From the NCBI GenBank assembly GCA_017822615.1, contig GCA_017822615.1_4530.1: DNA of 64,000 nucleotides. The stretch is one strand, 5' to 3'. How positions within the stretch are numbered: the first letter of the stretch is position 1; each line of letters begins with the position of its first letter. Position numbers and translations under genes: made by a program. Source of the stretch: a phage. A model generated the notes under the pieces. The model did no database searches. It saw nothing but the letters and a program-made list of their open reading frames with translations, and was not told the origin of the DNA. Positions 11,182 to 63,828 of the stretch are shown here, one piece after another.

Positions 11182-11791
11182 ATGCAGATAGTATGTGATT
11201 GGGATTTAGTTGTGGCTCCATTAGATGTTGCTTGGTTAGAATGGTTGAATAAGATTAGTGGACTTGGTGTTAAGATAGACACATTCACAAAAAAATGCAG
11301 ACTATGATCTTACCAACTACTTTCCTGGGTTCAGGGAGGAGTTCAATATAGATCCTTACGGATTTCTGGATAATCCTCATCTCTATGATACAATGGGTTT
11401 TGTTCCAGGTATGCCAGATTTCTTAAAGTATGTTTCAAGGAAAGGTAGCAATCTTTTGATCGCAAGTGTGACAAAAGGTGGTCACTTAAGTTCTAAACAT
11501 AAGCATGTTTTAAGAACGTTAGATACGATTGATTTTAGCAAAGGATCTGGTAACGGCTTTTTTGCTACGAAAGAAAAATACTTATTGCCTTGTGATATAG
11601 CAATAGATGACAGGGCTGATAACCTACTATATTTTCCAGATGAAGTGGTTAAAATATATTTTAATACGCCTTATAAAGATAACCATCTAGAAGAACTAAA
11701 GAAAAAACCAAATGTTGTGATCACAGGTTTAGAAGATCAGTGGCTAACATGTTTGGATGTTTTTAACACTTTGAACAATTTTAAAAACTAA
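11182..11791 (+). pseudogene. HAD-family 5'(3')-deoxyribonucleotidase interrupted by a +1 frameshift at an A7 run
   Basis: N-terminal ORF 11182-11307 carries DWDLV (HAD motif I); C-terminal frame (open from 11279, track ORF 11393..11791) carries IASVTKG and IDD. Frames differ by +1 at A7 11289-11295. Confidence 0.55.
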
Positions 11792-37851: not shown

Positions 37852-38212
37852 TCTTCCTCCTGTTCGGTATTATTCACCTGTGAGACACAATGTAACACAA
37901 GCTTTGTGAGTTTGTCAAGGATCTAATTACATTCTACACAAGAAGAGGGGTTAATAACTATAGGAATAGTCTTACTATAGGTGCAATACAAGTTAAGAGT
38001 TAGATTGATAGGTAAGACTTATCTTAAACACATAATTGATAGGTGAACCAGCATTGACTTTTTCAAAAAAATATGGTACCCTAAACATATGTTTACGAGC
38101 GATAGCGAGTAGTAGATTTCTATATAATAATGTTTCATGTTACTCACGATAGTGAGGTATGAAACGTAAGTGAAGGTAGATAAACTATGATCATCTATCT
38201 ACCATCTATTAA

Positions 38213-38422
38213 TCAATATAGATCTAATGTTAGACTAACAGTTATCCAACAAACAATAGCAGTCCATATAACAAGTAATGATCTACAAACTACATTCCAT
38301 TCAAATACATTGTATGTTAACCATTCTCCCATCACAACACAAGAACCTAACCAACATCCGACAATAACTATAATCCAATAAAAGAATCCTACAGTAGAGT
38401 ATACAGCAAAAGCTTTTAACAT
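38213..38422 (-). CDS. small membrane protein
   Basis: Two hydrophobic segments; RBS ggaggaaag on reverse strand. Confidence 0.5.
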   Translation of the reverse strand: MLKAFAVYSTVGFFYWIIVIVGCWLGSCVVMGEWLTYNVFEWNVVCRSLLVIWTAIVCWITVSLTLDLY

Positions 38423-38835
38423 CTTTCCTCCAGAAGTTGTTCAACAGTTTGACGAGTATGATTGTCCCAGTAAACCTTAGTGAAGTCAAGAGTTCCTTGT
38501 TCGTTTCTCTTAGTTTCGAAGAAGTATCCGCCTTCTCTTTCTACTCTGTCTCTAATGTGCTCTATGAGGTGCTTTTTACAAGATGCTGATAAACAATAGT
38601 CATACTCCCCACGAAGCAATACTATAGCTGCAAGTCTGTTATCACCAACTTGGGATATTGTCCAAGAAAGCATACTACCTTTTATACCTAAAGGTGTTTG
38701 TCGAATGGAATATCCACCATGCCGACTGATAGAAATTATGGCAAGCTGTTCTCCTGTTAGAGATCTTCCTAATGCACCTTCTGTTGGACTTCCTTCAATA
38801 ATACTTTTGAAAAAAGCTTTGATCTTACCTAACAT
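38416..38835 (-). CDS. hypothetical protein
   Basis: ORF track. Confidence 0.55.
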   Translation of the reverse strand: MLGKIKAFFKSIIEGSPTEGALGRSLTGEQLAIISISRHGGYSIRQTPLGIKGSMLSWTISQVGDNRLAAIVLLRGEYDYCLSASCKKHLIEHIRDRVEREGGYFFETKRNEQGTLDFTKVYWDNHTRQTVEQLLEERC

Positions 38836-38853
38836 AAGTCCCCCCTTAAAAAT

Positions 38854-38988
38854 TTACTTGTTTAAAGTATCTCTTACTTGTTCTGCTTGACGTTTAGTAA
38901 TAAAAGTCCCAACCGAAACGTTAAACTCATTGACTACAGAGAACGATCCATCACGGTTCTCACGAATATTAAACAATTTCTTACTCAT
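38854..38988 (-). CDS. small hypothetical protein (44 aa)
   Basis: Reverse-strand ATG after gaaggaggtaga; not in track. Confidence 0.4.
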   Translation of the reverse strand: MSKKLFNIRENRDGSFSVVNEFNVSVGTFITKRQAEQVRDTLNK

Positions 38989-39184
38989 TTCTACCTCCTT
39001 CAATGCTTTGTGCCGTACCATCCCAAGCCATTAGAATGTTTTCCAATAGTTCACGAGGCTCTTTAAACCAAACTTCCATTTCATCAAGAATCTCGTCCGT
39101 GTCGTAAGTATAGCCTGGAACACCAAGTTCACATTTCTTAATATAACTTTCTAACCAACGATGATAAGTCTTAGCCCCATTCAT
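38981..39184 (-). CDS. hypothetical protein
   Basis: ORF track. Confidence 0.5.
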   Translation of the reverse strand: MNGAKTYHRWLESYIKKCELGVPGYTYDTDEILDEMEVWFKEPRELLENILMAWDGTAQSIEGGRNE

Positions 39185-39461
39185 ACTGTGCTACCTTTTC
39201 TTTTACCCAATCTACGCGATCTTTGTCATAATGTTGAGTGCCAAGAAAAAGACCATTGTGGAAGCTTTCAGCACCGAAAGGATAAATCGGATCTAAACCA
39301 TCTTCTTCAAATAACATTTTTAGTCTCTTTGATGTAGATTTCTTAGTCTCTGAATTGTAGCTTGTGGTTATAAGCCAGTCTTCCAAACAACGACACAAAC
39401 CTTGACGAGAGTCCCAAGGAAAAACACAATCTCCAACAGGAGCTTTTTCCGCCCATTCCAA
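39171..39461 (-). CDS. GLC/WVK paralog family member (N-terminal region in another frame)
   Basis: Carries GLCRCL, PFG and RVDWVKEK; the family N-terminal helix is encoded in the -1 frame upstream (ORF 39368..39508). Confidence 0.5.
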   Translation of the reverse strand: MEWAEKAPVGDCVFPWDSRQGLCRCLEDWLITTSYNSETKKSTSKRLKMLFEEDGLDPIYPFGAESFHNGLFLGTQHYDKDRVDWVKEKVAQYEWG

Positions 39462-39508
39462 CCAGCCTTTAAAAAGTTATACAATATGTAGTCTTCAGTG
39501 TAATACAT
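39368..39508 (-). CDS. small ORF with strong RBS; candidate frameshift partner of 39171..39461
   Basis: Reverse-strand AAGGAGG 5 nt before ATG at 39508; encodes MYYTEDYILYNFLKAGW...; track lists it from an upstream start. Confidence 0.4.
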   Translation of the reverse strand: MYYTEDYILYNFLKAGWNGRKKLLLEIVFFLGTLVKVCVVVWKTGL

Positions 39509-39559
39509 TAGCGCCTCCTTTACGTATACAATAACACCCCGCAGAACGGGGTGCAACTA

Positions 39560-40171
39560 TTATTTAATCTGTTTAAAAATTTCGTTTGGAACGGTACCGT
39601 TTAAAATACCTTCTACGATCTCTTGTGCAGATGTGTAAGAGAGTCCAAAAGAAGCTACGCCTAAAATTGCCTCCTTCAAAGGATCTGGCAGGGGTTCAAA
39701 ATTACCTGCAACAAAGCCACCTGCACAAGCAGCGCCTTCATCATCCCAGAAAACAACTGCTACATCGTTACCATGCGAAGTTGTGCGATGTGCAATAACT
39801 TCAACTTCGGTGCCTTCTTTAGGAACAGAATAAGAACTGTCCCAAGAATATCTTTCCAAATCAGGAACAAAGATAACCTTTTCACCTACTGGCGGCAGTT
39901 CACAACGATAATACCAAGAATTTTTTTCGTTCATTGCTTTATTTTCCTCCACGTCTTCAAAAGTAACGATCCAATCGTAGCCGTAAGAAAACGGATATTT
40001 TAGATCTAAAGAATAAGTTTGACCTAAATCGTCCTCAACAAGAACCATCCTGTCAAAGTTTGCGATGTTAGGATTATGTTTAATGACAGGGTATGTTTCC
40101 CCTACAGTAAATTGTCCTAAATGGTAAAGTTCATCTCTCCAAGTAATTTGGATATGAGTGCATTGAATCAT
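39560..40171 (-). CDS. hypothetical protein
   Basis: ORF track. Confidence 0.6.
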   Translation of the reverse strand: MIQCTHIQITWRDELYHLGQFTVGETYPVIKHNPNIANFDRMVLVEDDLGQTYSLDLKYPFSYGYDWIVTFEDVEENKAMNEKNSWYYRCELPPVGEKVIFVPDLERYSWDSSYSVPKEGTEVEVIAHRTTSHGNDVAVVFWDDEGAACAGGFVAGNFEPLPDPLKEAILGVASFGLSYTSAQEIVEGILNGTVPNEIFKQIK

Positions 40172-40175
40172 AAAA

Positions 40176-40448
40176 TCACCCCCAAGAAATATTTATATAT
40201 CTTACAATGTTTGCACTGTCTAAAGCCATGTTTGCACCACACCCACGCTCGCGCCAATAACTAACAATACCTTCACAGATACTCTCTTGTATCTTCTTAT
40301 CACTTGGCATTTCTAGTATAAGACTTGGGTTGTGGATGTTTATGTTATAATATCCTTCCTCTGCGGCTTGAGCTACCAATTTACTTACTTTTTCAAAGTA
40401 CGGGGAATTAGTGGCATCTGCCATTGTTTTTAAGGTTTGTCTATCCAT
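40176..40448 (-). CDS. hypothetical protein
   Basis: ORF track. Confidence 0.55.
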   Translation of the reverse strand: MDRQTLKTMADATNSPYFEKVSKLVAQAAEEGYYNINIHNPSLILEMPSDKKIQESICEGIVSYWRERGCGANMALDSANIVRYINISWG

Positions 40449-40846
40449 TATTCTGCCTCATCATAGAAGAAATCCAACTCTTGTTCCAGTTGTTTAACTC
40501 GCTCCTTAACCCACTGTACACGTTTTTCATTAAACATGCAACGTTTTTCCTTACACTCTTGCTCAAAAGATTTTGCTGTGTTAAACGGGAAAGTTGTATC
40601 TAAACCAGCATTTTCAAAACTGGCTAATTGCATACCATAAACAGAATATGCTAAAGAATGATCGGCTCGAAATTCATCACTTATATACATACGTAGACCT
40701 CGACATAAGCCAACATCAGCGTAACCACTTTCTCGTGGAAAGAGACGGAGGTGTTCTAACCAATTATTATAGAAATCTAAAAGAATCCTCTTACACTTCA
40801 AATCAATTGTCATAAAAAGTTTCTCCTTCATCGAACAAGTTGGCAA
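40448..40846 (-). CDS. GLC/WVK paralog family member
   Basis: LLDFYNNWL...GLCRGL...FPFN...RVQWVKERV. Confidence 0.6.
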   Translation of the reverse strand: MPTCSMKEKLFMTIDLKCKRILLDFYNNWLEHLRLFPRESGYADVGLCRGLRMYISDEFRADHSLAYSVYGMQLASFENAGLDTTFPFNTAKSFEQECKEKRCMFNEKRVQWVKERVKQLEQELDFFYDEAE

Positions 40847-41213
40847 GATTGTTCACCGCAATTTGGGTGGAAAGAAGACAACTGTTTGCAGACACATAAG
40901 CACGGGCTATTTTGTAAACATAAGCTTTCGTATTGCAATCTTCTAAAATCGGAAGACTTTCATCGATAGCATCTATAACACTAAACATCACATCTAAAAC
41001 TTTAATTGTAAGTATTGTATCTATATCTTCGTAACCTTTTTCAATCCGACCTGAATAGAAAGTATAGTCCTCAACAGTTCGTCGTTTAAATTGGCGCATA
41101 AAATCAGAACCATCTGTAGCAGAATTGAACAAATTTTCAAAAAATACCTCCCATCCGGCAAAAAGGGCTGACAGCATGATTAAGTGATCTACAGATTCAT
41201 TTTCTTGTTTCAT
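40803..41213 (-). CDS. hypothetical protein
   Basis: ORF track. Confidence 0.55.
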   Translation of the reverse strand: MKQENESVDHLIMLSALFAGWEVFFENLFNSATDGSDFMRQFKRRTVEDYTFYSGRIEKGYEDIDTILTIKVLDVMFSVIDAIDESLPILEDCNTKAYVYKIARAYVSANSCLLSTQIAVNNLANLFDEGETFYDN

Positions 41214-41221
41214 ATCCTCTC

Positions 41222-41899
41222 CTATTTAATGTTCAATCTAGCACACAAGCGAGAAACAGTTTTAGCATCCCACTTACCACCACGTGCTGTTGCGATTTTC
41301 TTACTATTGAATTTTTCAGCAATAGTTTTGTAAGGTGTATTTAAATCTCTAAGGATCTCCAAGCGTTCACGGAATGTCTCTGCAAAAGCGTCTGCTTTAA
41401 CAGAATTGTATTCCATTTTTCCTTTTCTACGTGCAGCGGCAGTTTTAGGATTAGCACTGCCTAATAAAACACCTTTGCTTTTTGCTACAGCAAGACCCTT
41501 TTTAATACGATCAGCAATACCTCTGACTTCTTGTTCAGCCAGAACAGACAGAAGCTGTATAACCATTTTATCTGCATCTGGCATGATGGCTATCTTAACA
41601 TCGATCATTTCTAGAAGAGTTGCTACGGAGGCGTTGTTACGACCCAAGCGGTCAACTTTAGCTACCAATAAAGTTGCTCCGGTAGCTTTACACATTTCAA
41701 CCGCTTTGACCAGTTCCTTACGTTGCTTCCAATCGCCCTTACCCGAATAGTATTCAGAAAATTGACCAATAACTTCAGCATCAGGCACAGAGTCTAAGAA
41801 GTAACGGATATCGTTCTCTTGGCTCTCCATACCATATTGTGCCTCACCTTTTTTCTGTTTAGAAAGACGACTGTAAACAACAAACTTTTTCATAACCAC
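41222..41899 (-). CDS. serine recombinase (resolvase/invertase family)
   Basis: YSRLS catalytic region, YYSGKG, LLVAKVDRLGRN, EQEVRGIADRIKKG; C-terminal HTH; reverse-strand TTGACA-17-TAAAGT upstream. Confidence 0.8.
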   Translation of the reverse strand: MVMKKFVVYSRLSKQKKGEAQYGMESQENDIRYFLDSVPDAEVIGQFSEYYSGKGDWKQRKELVKAVEMCKATGATLLVAKVDRLGRNNASVATLLEMIDVKIAIMPDADKMVIQLLSVLAEQEVRGIADRIKKGLAVAKSKGVLLGSANPKTAAARRKGKMEYNSVKADAFAETFRERLEILRDLNTPYKTIAEKFNSKKIATARGGKWDAKTVSRLCARLNIK

Positions 41900-43429: not shown

Positions 43430-43756
43430 TCAACCAATTATTTCTTCTGCTACACGTTCTTTTACCCAGTTCACACGATCCATATTCAAATGACAGCGGC
43501 TTTTTTCCGCTTCTAAGGTGTACTTTCCAAAATTACTGTTGAAAGGCAACACCATAACCAAATCTTTGCGGTAGAACTGCTCATGCATTTCATCCAGTAC
43601 AGGTTCGTATCGTTCGCTTTCCCCCATATCGTAAAAATCATAGAGGTTAGAGCACAAACCTGTGCAACGGGTGAACGGTTCACCTTCAGGAGCACCAGCT
43701 TCCAACCATGCCAAATACGTGCGGTAAAATGTTAATAGTTCTTCGCTCATTTCCAC
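43430..43756 (-). CDS. GLC/WVK paralog family member
   Basis: LTFYRTYLAWLEAGAPEG...GLCSNL...LPFN...RVNWVKERV. Confidence 0.65.
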   Translation of the reverse strand: MEMSEELLTFYRTYLAWLEAGAPEGEPFTRCTGLCSNLYDFYDMGESERYEPVLDEMHEQFYRKDLVMVLPFNSNFGKYTLEAEKSRCHLNMDRVNWVKERVAEEIIG

Positions 43757-43962
43757 TCTCCTTCATGTTTTTTAATATCATAGGAGTAGTATTCAAACAT
43801 ACTCATGCTCACCACACCTGCCATCTCTAAACAAAGAGGTTTGTCATTATAGAAGGCACTTACTGCTCTTCCTGCTTTGTGTGCTGCTTCTTCGGAATCG
43901 CAACCACAAACATTATGCACCCAAGAACCTGGACCATCATATTTAAGACGGACAATCCACAT
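43747..43962 (-). CDS. hypothetical protein
   Basis: ORF track. Confidence 0.55.
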   Translation of the reverse strand: MWIVRLKYDGPGSWVHNVCGCDSEEAAHKAGRAVSAFYNDKPLCLEMAGVVSMSMFEYYSYDIKKHEGEWK

Positions 43963-44192: not shown

Positions 44193-44518
44193 TATTCATC
44201 CTCCTCTGCAATACGATTTCTTACCCAATTAATTCTGTCCACGTTCAGGTGACAGGCATCTGCATCTGACTCTAAGACATATGCATCGTAGTTCTCATTG
44301 AAAGGGAGTTCTTGATTCAACCCTTTATGGTAAAACTGTGCGTGCATTTCATCTGACAAGGTTGTTATAATGGGGTTGTAATTACCTCTGTGCACATAAT
44401 CGAACAAGTTGGCACACAAACCACAATCCCGCCGAAAAGGTTTACCATCAGGAGCACCAACATCAATCCATGCTAGATAAATTTTATAAAACTCCATCAA
44501 CCTTGCGCTTGTTTTCAT
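44192..44518 (-). CDS. GLC/WVK paralog family member
   Basis: MEFYKIYLAWIDVGAPDG...GLCANL...LPFN...RINWVRNRI. Confidence 0.65.
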   Translation of the reverse strand: MKTSARLMEFYKIYLAWIDVGAPDGKPFRRDCGLCANLFDYVHRGNYNPIITTLSDEMHAQFYHKGLNQELPFNENYDAYVLESDADACHLNVDRINWVRNRIAEEDE

Positions 44519-47562: not shown

Positions 47563-47799
47563 TTATTTGTCTTGCTTGTATCTTACAAGGCGATCACACT
47601 CCAGGTCAAGAAATTTCTCCGCATTTCGTTCATGTTTGAGCACAATACATTGTTCTTTCCAGTCTGTAGCTCTTTGCTGCGCTGCTCCTGGGTCAAAATC
47701 CCAAAGCCATGCCGCGAAAAGAACAACCATAACAATTACCAAGAAACTAAACACTATTGGCATTGCACATCCTCCTGTGTAGCATGATCTTTTACCCAT
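47563..47799 (-). CDS. hypothetical membrane-anchored protein
   Basis: Hydrophobic IVFSFLVIVMVVLFAAWL. Confidence 0.5.
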   Translation of the reverse strand: MGKRSCYTGGCAMPIVFSFLVIVMVVLFAAWLWDFDPGAAQQRATDWKEQCIVLKHERNAEKFLDLECDRLVRYKQDK

Positions 47800-48068
47800 T
47801 TTATACGGGCAGCATTCAAATGCAATAGCCCGTTTCTTTGTGCAAAATCATATTTAAACCAATCTCCGTCATCAAACGGGTATTCTTCAGACAACCCTGC
47901 TTCGTGGAATTGCATTTGCATTTCATAATTTAGATCATCATAGCCACCAGACCAAAGATAGAGGCAACTGCACAAACCTTTATCATGCCAGAAAGGATTA
48001 TTATCTGGAGCACCAGCTAACAGCCAATTATGATAGGTTTGATAAAATTCTTTAAGTTCCTCTGACAT
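47754..48068 (-). CDS. GLC/WVK paralog family member
   Basis: KEFYQTYHNWLLAGAPDN...GLCSCL...YPFD...RIKWVKDH. Confidence 0.65.
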   Translation of the reverse strand: MSEELKEFYQTYHNWLLAGAPDNNPFWHDKGLCSCLYLWSGGYDDLNYEMQMQFHEAGLSEEYPFDDGDWFKYDFAQRNGLLHLNAARIKWVKDHATQEDVQCQ

Positions 48069-51131: not shown

Positions 51132-51515
51132 TTATTCAATGCAAGCATTATTTGCATCTTCAATCCGATCTTTCACCCACTGAAGACGTAACGTGTTGGT
51201 ATGACACGCCAAGTTTATACACTCTGAAAGGTAATCCATGCAATCCACATTGAACGGAAGATTGTAGTCCAGCCCTGCACATGTAAATTGTTTCCTCATT
51301 TCATATTTCAAACGGTCCAACAAATGATCACGCCATTTTCTATCTTCTTCTCTAGGTGTATCACCAACAAAATCATCTACATAATCTACCAGACAACCAC
51401 ATAAGCCACTCGTTGTGCGATTCATTGCAGGATAGTTGGCAATCCATGCTTTATAGAAGCGAAGCAATGTTGCACTGCTCAATGGAATACTATTTGTCAT
51501 CTTTCTCTCCTTCAT
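51132..51515 (-). CDS. GLC/WVK paralog family member
   Basis: LLRFYKAWIA...SGLCGCL...LPFN...RLQWVKDRI. Confidence 0.65.
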   Translation of the reverse strand: MKERKMTNSIPLSSATLLRFYKAWIANYPAMNRTTSGLCGCLVDYVDDFVGDTPREEDRKWRDHLLDRLKYEMRKQFTCAGLDYNLPFNVDCMDYLSECINLACHTNTLRLQWVKDRIEDANNACIE

Positions 51516-51834
51516 AATCTTGAATTCTATCTAGCACCCATTGTATACGATGTTTGTTTTTATGGCAAATATGTTTTTTATGTTCAAAGGTGTATTCCTC
51601 ATAACCACCTTCATTAAACGGGAAATTGTAATCCAATCCTGCACCAATAAACTGTGATTTCATCTCTTGTTGTAGACGAGGTAACAGTTCATCAGGGTAT
51701 GTTCCCTCTACATACTTAATCAAACATATGCACAAACCACTCGTTGTGTGACCTTCTACCTCACCAGCAAGCCAAGCTTTGTAAAACTTCATTAGACGTA
51801 AACTACTTAACGGAACATTTTTACTCTCTTGCAT
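51490..51834 (-). CDS. GLC/WVK paralog family member
   Basis: LMKFYKAWLA...SGLCICL...FPFN...RIQWVLDRI; RBS gagaggag on reverse strand. Confidence 0.65.
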   Translation of the reverse strand: MQESKNVPLSSLRLMKFYKAWLAGEVEGHTTSGLCICLIKYVEGTYPDELLPRLQQEMKSQFIGAGLDYNFPFNEGGYEEYTFEHKKHICHKNKHRIQWVLDRIQDYEGEKDDK

Positions 51835-52173
51835 GACAATCTCCTCTCATCGTTAGCCATCTTTCATGGCAATCATCAATCACCAACATCATACGATCAA
51901 TCTTAAGGAATTACAATCGATTTATCATAGGGGATTCCTATCAATTATCCCATATATACCGATTATTTTTGACACCCCGCTCTTGTATAAAAAGTAACCC
52001 AAAATATCTACGGGGAGAGATTATTTCGGGACACCCTGTTTCATGGCAATCATGGCAAGAATATCTAATAGAATCAATATCATATGGCAAAAATCATGGC
52101 GCATACGTAAGAAGTGCTTAACGCGAATTTTCGGGCCGTCAGGTCCACGCAGCGACAATTCCCAAATATCATG

Positions 52174-63571: not shown

Positions 63572-63600
63572 TTGACAAGCCCAGGGATCGGGCTTATACT
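63572..63600 (+). promoter_or_regulatory. sigma70-type promoter with palindromic spacer
   Basis: TTGACA 63572-63577, 17-nt spacer agcccagggatcgggct (dyad agccc/gggct), TATACT 63595-63600. Confidence 0.5.
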
Positions 63601-63828
63601 GTTTTACATACAGAAGAGGAAGCGCCACCCCACGGCGTAAAGGCGGGGCTAACATACCAGGGGGCACTGGTTGGAAGGTTGATCGCCGGTAGGCTGGGTG
63701 CTATATATTTGTAAAGAAATGCAAAGATAAAATAATCGCTTGCTTTCCTGGCTGGATCTGTTATTCTTATTACATGGCGAGGGGACACGGGAGCGCGAGA
63801 CAAACACCGCCCCTGCGCGTCATTCTCT

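What the first reader, a model, noticed from the sequence alone, without database searches (positions are those of the whole stretch)
39368..39508. Paralog family member 39171-39461 needs a -1 shift at a U-rich slippery site to gain the family N-terminus
The ORF with the strongest RBS here (AAGGAGG before ATG at 39508, reverse strand) encodes MYYTEDYILYNF..., matching the family N-terminal helix. The rest of the family sequence (GLCRCL...WVKEK) is in the -1 frame, which opens just upstream of the minus-strand sequence CTTTTTAAAG (plus 39467-39476). A -1 slip on UUU-UUA would join the two parts. Alternatively the gene is a pseudogene, or a truncated member starting at TTG 39461.
Basis: partly seen in the sequence, partly recalled or inferred. 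Interest (0 to 1): 0.45.

Follow-up and report, generated by a model that had tools for sequence, protein, structure and literature searches.

The report
One-base deletion splits a phage gene
The apparent ribosomal frameshift site is a single missing T in a run of six, found only in this phage strain, which breaks a small gene that all inspected relatives encode in one continuous frame, so it is an ordinary frameshift mutation or base-calling slip and not a programmed recoding signal.

Summary
On the minus strand, ATG 39508 (RBS AAGGAGG) opens a 46-codon frame carrying the family N-terminus. The rest of the family sequence lies in the -1 frame. The two frames meet at T_TTA_AAG (39473-39467), a canonical slippery heptamer. 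The programmed-frameshift reading fails. The window is a Phapecoctavirus (phAPEC8-like coliphage). Every relative inspected has TTTTTT where the window has TTTTT and encodes one continuous 112-aa protein (phAPEC8_0054 orthologue): 14 loci read directly, 41/41 and 60/60 listed GenBank phage records by span length, and 10/10 independent assemblies. The truncated 96-aa product occurs on one public contig, which is 100% identical to the window; intact forms occur on hundreds. No downstream stem, upstream SD-like element or Rfam match was found. Deleting one T from TTTTTTAAAG necessarily creates the heptamer, so its presence is not evidence of design. Most likely this is a recent strain-specific frameshift mutation in one of seven paralogs of an uncharacterised, widespread phage family. 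It may be slightly leaky, since published unstimulated slippage on this heptamer is about 0.1% to a few percent. A homopolymer miscall is the main rival. Low interest.

The parts
39514..39520 (-). Shine-Dalgarno AAGGAGG, 5 nt upstream of ATG 39508
   Evidence: Read directly. Conserved in relatives, except for a 1-nt loss in Schickermooser.
39368..39508 (-). Frame-0 ORF, 46 aa plus stop. The first 12-14 residues (MYYTEDYILYNF..) are the authentic N-terminus. The remainder (AGWNGRKKLLLEIVFFLGTLVKVCVVVWKTGL) is out-of-frame sequence.
   Evidence: The N-terminus is identical to the 112-aa orthologues up to residue 12.
39471..39475 (-). T5 run (A5 on the plus strand), the site of the one-base deletion. 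Relatives have T6.
   Evidence: Alignment with PQ438048 places the gap at window 39471. 14 loci read directly have T6. 41/41 and 60/60 listed records are one base longer over this span.
39467..39473 (-). T_TTA_AAG, a canonical -1 slippery heptamer in frame 0, created by the deletion
   Evidence: U_UU.A_AA.G gives more than 0.10% frameshifting without stimulators in E. coli (PMC4066793).
39477..39479 (-). TAA that closes the -1 frame upstream, so a rescuing shift must occur after this point
39171..39476 (-). Open -1 frame that encodes residues 12-112 of the family protein. It is 100% identical at the DNA level to PQ438048 apart from the missing T. The longest formal ORF starts at TTG 39461 (96 aa).
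39534..39554 (-). Terminator-like GC-rich hairpin of the upstream gene, immediately before the RBS
   Evidence: Annotated as a terminator in phage Schickermooser.

Best explanation
The gene is the orthologue of phAPEC8_0054. It is a 112-aa, five-helix protein of an uncharacterised phage family (phrog_2510). In this strain it has lost one T from a T6 run in codons 12-13 (AAC TTT TTT AAA to AAC TTT TTA AAG). This is an ordinary, recent, strain-specific homopolymer frameshift mutation in one of seven paralogs, not a programmed recoding site. Shown: the deletion relative to all inspected relatives, its uniqueness to this strain, the absence of stimulators, and the position of the break in the middle of conserved helix 1. 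Inferred: ribosomes starting at ATG 39508 mostly terminate after 46 codons and give a non-functional peptide. Because the deletion necessarily creates U_UUA_AAG at the lesion, a small fraction of ribosomes (roughly 0.1% to a few percent by published E. coli measurements) probably slip -1 there. That would make a near-wild-type protein with a single F13L change. This is incidental leakiness rather than a designed mechanism.
For: All five relatives first fetched have AACTTTTTTAAAGG and one continuous 112-aa ORF, annotated as a CDS in four of them. By span length, 41/41 and 60/60 listed of 65 phage records are one base longer, and none is 100% identical. 14 loci read directly have T6; only the window and one identical contig have T5. 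10/10 independent Logan, ENA and NCBI assemblies that share the identical upstream neighbour call a full-length next gene (112 aa in nine, 119 aa in AV125). In IMG/VR the T5 pattern has 0 hits and the T6 pattern 1 hit. By exact protein look-up, intact 112-aa variants lie on 41, 177, 83, 30, 11, 7, 7 and 6 contigs, and the 96-aa truncated product lies on 1. The Logan contig SRR12605489_129 is 100% identical to window 37866-41831 including T5, so a separate assembly of reads reproduces the deletion. The window is otherwise clean. There are only 7 gaps against PQ438048 in 23.5 kb, and the one other frame-breaking indel in the 64 kb is shared with different strains. This argues against an error-prone assembly. 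No stimulator was found: fold z-score +0.94, no SD-like sequence within 25 nt upstream, only weak unspaced hairpins downstream, and no Rfam match. Downstream of the break the gene is identical to PQ438048, so the lesion is recent. Leakiness estimate: PMC4066793 and PMC10861913.
Against: I could not examine reads, so a platform-specific homopolymer undercall cannot be excluded. The Logan contig may come from the same read set as the window and would then not be independent. Five of the 65 phage records were not listed, so their run length was not checked individually. The leak estimate is transferred from reporter constructs in other sequence contexts and was not measured here.
Confidence: 0.65

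Rival explanations
1. Sequencing or base-calling artefact. The phage really has T6 and an intact gene, and the missing T is a homopolymer undercall carried into the consensus.
For: The change is a -1 length error in a 6-base homopolymer, the classic error type of flow-based and nanopore platforms. It is unique to this genome. Apart from this base the gene is identical to its closest relative. Other deposited relatives carry their own private homopolymer changes in the same gene: G3 in ECML-183-2 and G5 in AV125 against G4 elsewhere. So such one-off differences are common in these records.
Against: A Logan assembly of run SRR12605489 gives the same T5 with 100% identity over 3,966 nt. The window shows no excess of frame-breaking homopolymer indels. 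The only other one, A7 at 11283-11289, is shared with two other runs on a different strain background (99.66% identity) and is therefore real.
Confidence: 0.25
2. Programmed -1 ribosomal frameshifting. The gene is normally expressed as a transframe fusion through a tandem slip on U_UUA_AAG.
For: There is a canonical X_XXY_YYZ heptamer in the correct phase, placed so that a slip restores the family sequence with one substitution. A_AAG-type heptamers are the most slip-prone in E. coli (PMC4066793).
Against: It is not conserved. All inspected relatives have a single ORF, and their T6 sequence in that phase does not form a canonical heptamer. There is no downstream structure at 5-9 nt, no upstream SD-like element and no Rfam hit. 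None of the six paralogs is split. The heptamer follows automatically from deleting one T in TTTTTTAAAG. The 0-frame product has no homologue beyond its first 12-14 residues.
Confidence: 0.03
3. A functional N-terminally truncated family member translated from TTG 39461 (96 aa).
For: It is the longest formal ORF in the -1 frame, and a gene caller called it on the Logan contig. A weak AAGG lies 4 nt upstream of the TTG.
Against: It would lack invariant residues L9 and F12 and about two thirds of helix 1 (residues 5-22) of a confidently modelled five-helix protein. In all 150 best family hits the domain starts at profile positions 1-10. The TTG lies inside the translated frame-0 ORF behind a much stronger RBS and ATG. 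This product occurs on only one contig.
Confidence: 0.05

Closest known systems
phAPEC8_0054 (AFU62629.1) and its Phapecoctavirus orthologues (e.g. XKC20789.1, WVW37435.1, QBQ80192.1); PHROG phrog_2510
   Same: Same locus and synteny: after the 203-aa gene and its terminator hairpin, and overlapping the start of the 67-aa gene. Same RBS and start codon. 95-100% protein identity outside the lesion.
   Different: The orthologues have T6 and one continuous 112-aa ORF. The window has T5 and is split into a 46-aa frame-0 ORF and a 96-aa -1 ORF.
Bona fide bacterial and phage -1 PRF sites (E. coli dnaX A_AAA_AAG, IS911/IS3, lambda G/GT G_GGA_AAG)
   Same: X_XXY_YYZ heptamer ending in A_AAG, decoded by the slip-prone E. 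coli tRNA-Lys (PMC4066793; PMC5009743).
   Different: Those sites are conserved across relatives, have SD-like and/or stem-loop or pseudoknot stimulators, and yield two useful products in a set ratio. Here there is no conservation, no stimulator and no plausible function for the 0-frame product.
Leaky or compensated frameshift mutations: non-programmed -1 suppression of single-base deletions in E. coli (PMC10861913), the pDEST17 AAA-AAA site (PMC1851650), and herpesvirus TK G-run 'savior' indels (PMC5009743)
   Same: A single-base indel in or next to a homopolymer, where slippage at the same run can restore the frame at low level.
   Different: In those cases restoration was measured, and for TK a selective benefit is known. 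Here restoration is only inferred from the sequence and no benefit is indicated.

Membership tests
Programmed -1 ribosomal frameshift signal | Slippery heptamer X_XXY_YYZ in the 0 frame inside the ORF overlap | tested here: met
   T_TTA_AAG at 39473-39467 is the only canonical heptamer in the overlap.
Programmed -1 ribosomal frameshift signal | Stimulatory element: a downstream stem-loop or pseudoknot about 5-9 nt away, and/or an upstream SD-like sequence | tested here: not met
   Fold z-score +0.94 against shuffles. No SD-like motif in the 25 nt upstream. Only weak hairpins, starting 0 and 24 nt downstream. The 6-bp hairpin at 39419-39400 is about 48 nt away. No Rfam match.
Programmed -1 ribosomal frameshift signal | Two-frame arrangement and heptamer conserved in related genomes | tested here: not met
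   T6 and a single ORF in 14 loci read directly, in 41/41 and 60/60 listed records, and in 10/10 assemblies.
Programmed -1 ribosomal frameshift signal | Transframe product demonstrated at a defined efficiency | not testable with these tools
   Needs a reporter assay or mass spectrometry.
Homopolymer frameshift mutation (recent pseudogene) | A +/-1 indel within a mononucleotide run relative to intact orthologues | tested here: met
   T5 against T6; the gap maps to window 39471.
Homopolymer frameshift mutation (recent pseudogene) | Restricted to one strain or lineage | tested here: met
   Found only in the window and the identical contig SRR12605489_129.
Homopolymer frameshift mutation (recent pseudogene) | Lesion present in the underlying reads, not a consensus error | tested here: inconclusive
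   A separate Logan assembly reproduces it, but the reads and the sequencing platform could not be examined.
Homopolymer frameshift mutation (recent pseudogene) | Secondary decay downstream (further stops or indels) | tested here: not met
   The downstream frame is intact and identical to PQ438048. This fits a very recent event or an artefact.
phrog_2510 / phAPEC8_0054 protein family | Significant profile match over the whole ~105-residue domain | tested here: met
   The intact orthologue matches phrog_2510 at E = 1.4e-26 over residues 4-110. The window's -1 frame scores 1.3e-37 against the paralog profile.
phrog_2510 / phAPEC8_0054 protein family | Complete domain, including helix 1, encoded in one reading frame | tested here: not met
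   The break falls at residue 13 inside helix 1 (residues 5-22).

The most novel reading that the evidence does not exclude
The deletion is a real and tolerated, or even selected, dosage-reducing indel. Losing one T in TTTTTTAAAG silences most expression of one of seven paralogs and at the same time creates U_UUA_AAG at the lesion. A constant small fraction of ribosomes would then restore a near-wild-type (F13L) protein. This would be a self-suppressing frameshift mutation, comparable to the herpesvirus TK G-run 'savior' indels.
Probability: 0.04. Interest if true: 0.35.

Novelty: not a real feature. Interest (0 to 1): 0.07.

Why it matters
It matters mainly as a caution. A split gene with a textbook slippery heptamer at the junction looks like programmed frameshifting. 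But a one-base deletion at the junction of two homopolymer runs (T6A3) produces such a heptamer automatically, so the motif alone carries no evidential weight. Comparison with relatives settles the question quickly. For annotation, the locus should be recorded as a frameshifted (disrupted) orthologue of phAPEC8_0054, not as two genes or a recoded gene. The protein family is a confidently folded five-helix domain with about 2,000 representative clusters in phages, multiple paralogs per genome and no known function or solved structure. That family is more interesting than the frameshift.

Tried and rejected
1. Programmed -1 PRF: rejected on lack of conservation and lack of stimulators.
2. Error-riddled assembly: I listed every indel against PQ438048. 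Two further candidate frame-breaking homopolymer indels appeared. The one at 63660 lies in a mostly unannotated region where run length varies among relatives, so it is not an anomaly. The one at 11289 is unique among listed GenBank phage records but is shared with two other runs on a different strain background, so it is a real variant. The "many random homopolymer errors" idea is therefore not supported.
3. Finding the window's own record among complete E. coli genomes or PLSDB plasmids, to see how it was annotated: no match.
4. Function of the family: no Pfam family; PHROG of unknown function; no PDB fold match, best E = 2.6; BFVD matches are all uncharacterised; the afdb50 library was unavailable.
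5. The word-indexed protein search returned only one 90% cluster. The breadth of the family came from the profile search instead.
6. Transcriptional slippage on T5/A3: considered and set aside from general knowledge, because productive slippage needs longer runs. Not tested.

Full report
**Observation**

The region was read on the minus strand. AAGGAGG (39520-39514) precedes ATG 39508. Frame 0 encodes MYYTEDYILYNFLKAGWNGRKKLLLEIVFFLGTLVKVCVVVWKTGL and stops at 39370-39368. The -1 frame opens after TAA 39479-39477 and encodes LFKGWLEWAEKAPVGDCVFPWDSRQGLCRCLEDWL...VDWVKEKVAQYEWG, with its stop at 39173-39171. The junction in frame 0 reads AAC TTT TTA AAG. It contains T_TTA_AAG (39473-39467), a canonical X_XXY_YYZ heptamer and the only one in the 36-codon overlap. 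A tandem -1 slip there would give MYYTEDYILYNFLKGWLEW....

The paralog claim is also correct. Six further members lie on the minus strand at 40451-40852, 43433-43762, 44195-44518, 47757-48068, 51135-51530 and 51493-51846. The break falls inside the conserved N-terminal motif. Family-invariant residues L9 and F12 are encoded before the break.

**What the genome is and what relatives show**

The window is a Phapecoctavirus, a phAPEC8-like E. coli myovirus of the Stephanstirmvirinae. 65 GenBank phage records match window 38900-39900 at 95% identity or more. Most of them span 1002 bases against the 1001-base query.

- Five relatives were fetched first. Four annotate a single 339-nt CDS here (phAPEC8_0054 and its equivalents).
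- The alignment shows that all five read AACTTTTTTAAAGG (T6) where the window reads AACTTTTTAAAGG (T5). Four translate to one continuous 112-aa protein, MYYTEDYILYNFFKGWLEW...; the fifth, ECML-183-2, is continuous through this site but reads past the usual stop because of a separate change at the 3' end.
- With a 120-nt query across the site, 41/41 records (megablast) and 60/60 listed of 65 (blastn) are one base longer than the window. None is 100% identical. Schickermooser has equal length only because it lost a separate base in the RBS region; it has T6.
- Of all loci whose sequence I read directly, 14 have T6. T5 occurs only in the window and one contig identical to it.
- Ten of ten independent assemblies (Logan, ENA, NCBI) that carry the identical 203-aa upstream neighbour call the next gene at full length: 112 aa in nine, and 119 aa in AV125, which has a private G-run change at the 3' end.
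- In IMG/VR the T5 pattern has no match and the T6 pattern has one.
- By exact-sequence look-up, intact 112-aa variants lie on 41, 177, 83, 30, 11, 7, 7 and 6 contigs. The 96-aa truncated product lies on one, and the 46-aa product is not in the collection.

**Is the deletion real?**

The one contig with the truncated product is Logan SRR12605489_129. It is 100% identical to window 37866-41831 and carries T5. A separate assembly of reads therefore reproduces the deletion. It may be the same sample as the window, so it is not independent biological evidence.

To test for a generally error-prone assembly, I aligned the whole window to its closest relative, PQ438048. The window is a distinct strain: 99.3% identity over 19975-43444, with 155 mismatches and 7 gaps. 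Few single-base indels are present. Two others looked frame-breaking.

- The one at 63660 lies in a mostly unannotated, widely conserved region where run length varies among relatives. It is not an anomaly.
- The one at 11283-11289 (A7 against A6) splits a conserved 202-aa 5'-3' deoxyribonucleotidase-like gene. It is absent from 60/60 listed phage records. The same A7 is present in two other runs, SRR25429215 and SRR22287330. The SRR25429215 contig is 99.66% identical to the window, so it is a different strain. A7 is therefore a real heritable variant.

So the window does not look like a homopolymer-error-ridden assembly. This favours a real T5 mutation (about 0.65) over a miscall (about 0.25). 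Only the reads can settle it.

**Why it is not programmed frameshifting**

1. The two-frame arrangement is not conserved in any inspected relative, and no paralog is split.
2. No stimulator is present. The 101 nt at and after the site fold less stably than shuffled controls (z = +0.94). There is no SD-like sequence in the 25 nt upstream. Downstream there are only weak hairpins at the wrong spacing. Rfam gives nothing.
3. The heptamer is not independent evidence. Deleting any one T from TTTTTTAAAG necessarily yields T_TTA_AAG in the original phase.
4. Beyond residue 14 the frame-0 product has no homologue.

**Likely consequence**

Most ribosomes should terminate after 46 codons. Sharma et al. 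2014 (PMC4066793) list U_UU.A_AA.G among heptamers with more than 0.10% -1 frameshifting in E. coli without stimulators. They report about 0.3% for the best V_VV.A_AA.G motifs and at most about 3.7% in an optimal 3' context. Springstein et al. 2024 (PMC10861913) found that non-programmed -1 slippage suppresses single-base deletions at aggregate frequencies of 1-10%. Atkins et al. 2016 (PMC5009743) describe the class of corrective or 'savior' indels. A low level of near-wild-type (F13L) protein is therefore plausible. This would be incidental leakiness, and it is inferred rather than shown.

A functional truncated protein from TTG 39461 is unlikely. The AlphaFold2 model of the intact protein is confident (pLDDT 92.5, pTM 0.86) and shows five helices, with helix 1 at residues 5-22. 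The truncated form would lose most of that helix along with invariant L9 and F12. In all 150 best hits of a family profile search, the domain starts at profile positions 1-10.

**The family**

There is no Pfam match. The protein matches PHROG phrog_2510, of unknown function. No PDB fold match was found (best E = 2.6). Structural matches at TM 0.7-0.83 are to uncharacterised proteins of many phages, including Delftia, Pectobacterium, Klebsiella, Rhizobium and Burkholderia phages. The profile search found 1,945 representative clusters at E <= 0.001, including tandem two- and three-domain proteins. The function remains unknown. With seven copies per genome, loss of one copy is likely to be tolerated; that is an inference.

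**Verdict**

The locus is a strain-specific one-base deletion in a T6 run within the phAPEC8_0054 orthologue. It is ordinary and of low interest.

Noticed in passing
window 11182-11791 (+), A-run at 11283-11289: A conserved 202-aa gene, annotated as 5'-3' deoxyribonucleotidase in some relatives, is split by A7 where 60/60 listed phage records have A6. The window ORFs are 11182-11307 (41 aa) and 11393-11791 (132 aa), and the rest of the gene is intact in the next frame. The same A7 occurs in Logan runs SRR25429215 (99.66% identical, so a different strain) and SRR22287330. It is therefore a real, heritable frameshift variant in a sub-lineage. Restoring the frame would need a +1 shift or loss of one A in the transcript.
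   Followed up: partly
window 63580-63739: This 160-nt stretch is conserved in 227 phage records from several genera (Escherichia, Klebsiella, Salmonella, Cronobacter, Pectobacterium and other phages), yet most records annotate nothing there. The length of its G-run (around 63660) varies among relatives. It may be a conserved non-coding element or an unannotated small gene.
   Followed up: no
window 40451-40852, 43433-43762, 44195-44518, 47757-48068, 51135-51530, 51493-51846 (all -): Six intact paralogs of the same ~105-residue domain (invariant GLC..L, PF and R..WV motifs). The family has about 1,945 representative clusters, includes tandem 2-3-domain proteins, gives a confident five-helix AlphaFold model, and has no PDB match and no known function. 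It is a large uncharacterised phage family kept in many copies per genome.
   Followed up: partly
L004 (OL631481, ECML-183-2) and L022 (OR352955, AV125), 3' end of the orthologous gene; equivalent to window ~39174-39180: Two deposited relatives each have a private change in the G4 run just before the stop codon, where the gene overlaps the start of the next gene. ECML-183-2 has G3, with read-through and no CDS annotated. AV125 has G5, with a 119-aa product and the downstream 67-aa gene not called. One-off homopolymer indels recur in this gene across records.
   Followed up: partly
window 39368-39445 (-): The out-of-frame tail of the 46-aa product (LLLEIVFFLGTLVKVCVVVW) is strongly hydrophobic and resembles a transmembrane segment. 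If the deletion is real, the main translation product is a small hydrophobic peptide of unknown effect.
   Followed up: no
protein cluster of P0001: The 90%-identity cluster of the 112-aa protein also contains 67-aa proteins, which are the product of the overlapping downstream gene (window 38981-39184). Read-through fusion variants probably bridge the two. This is a clustering artefact to bear in mind when counting members.
   Followed up: no
window 41222-41899 (-): A serine recombinase (PF00239 Resolvase) gene lies three genes upstream in this otherwise accessory-gene region of a lytic myovirus.
   Followed up: no
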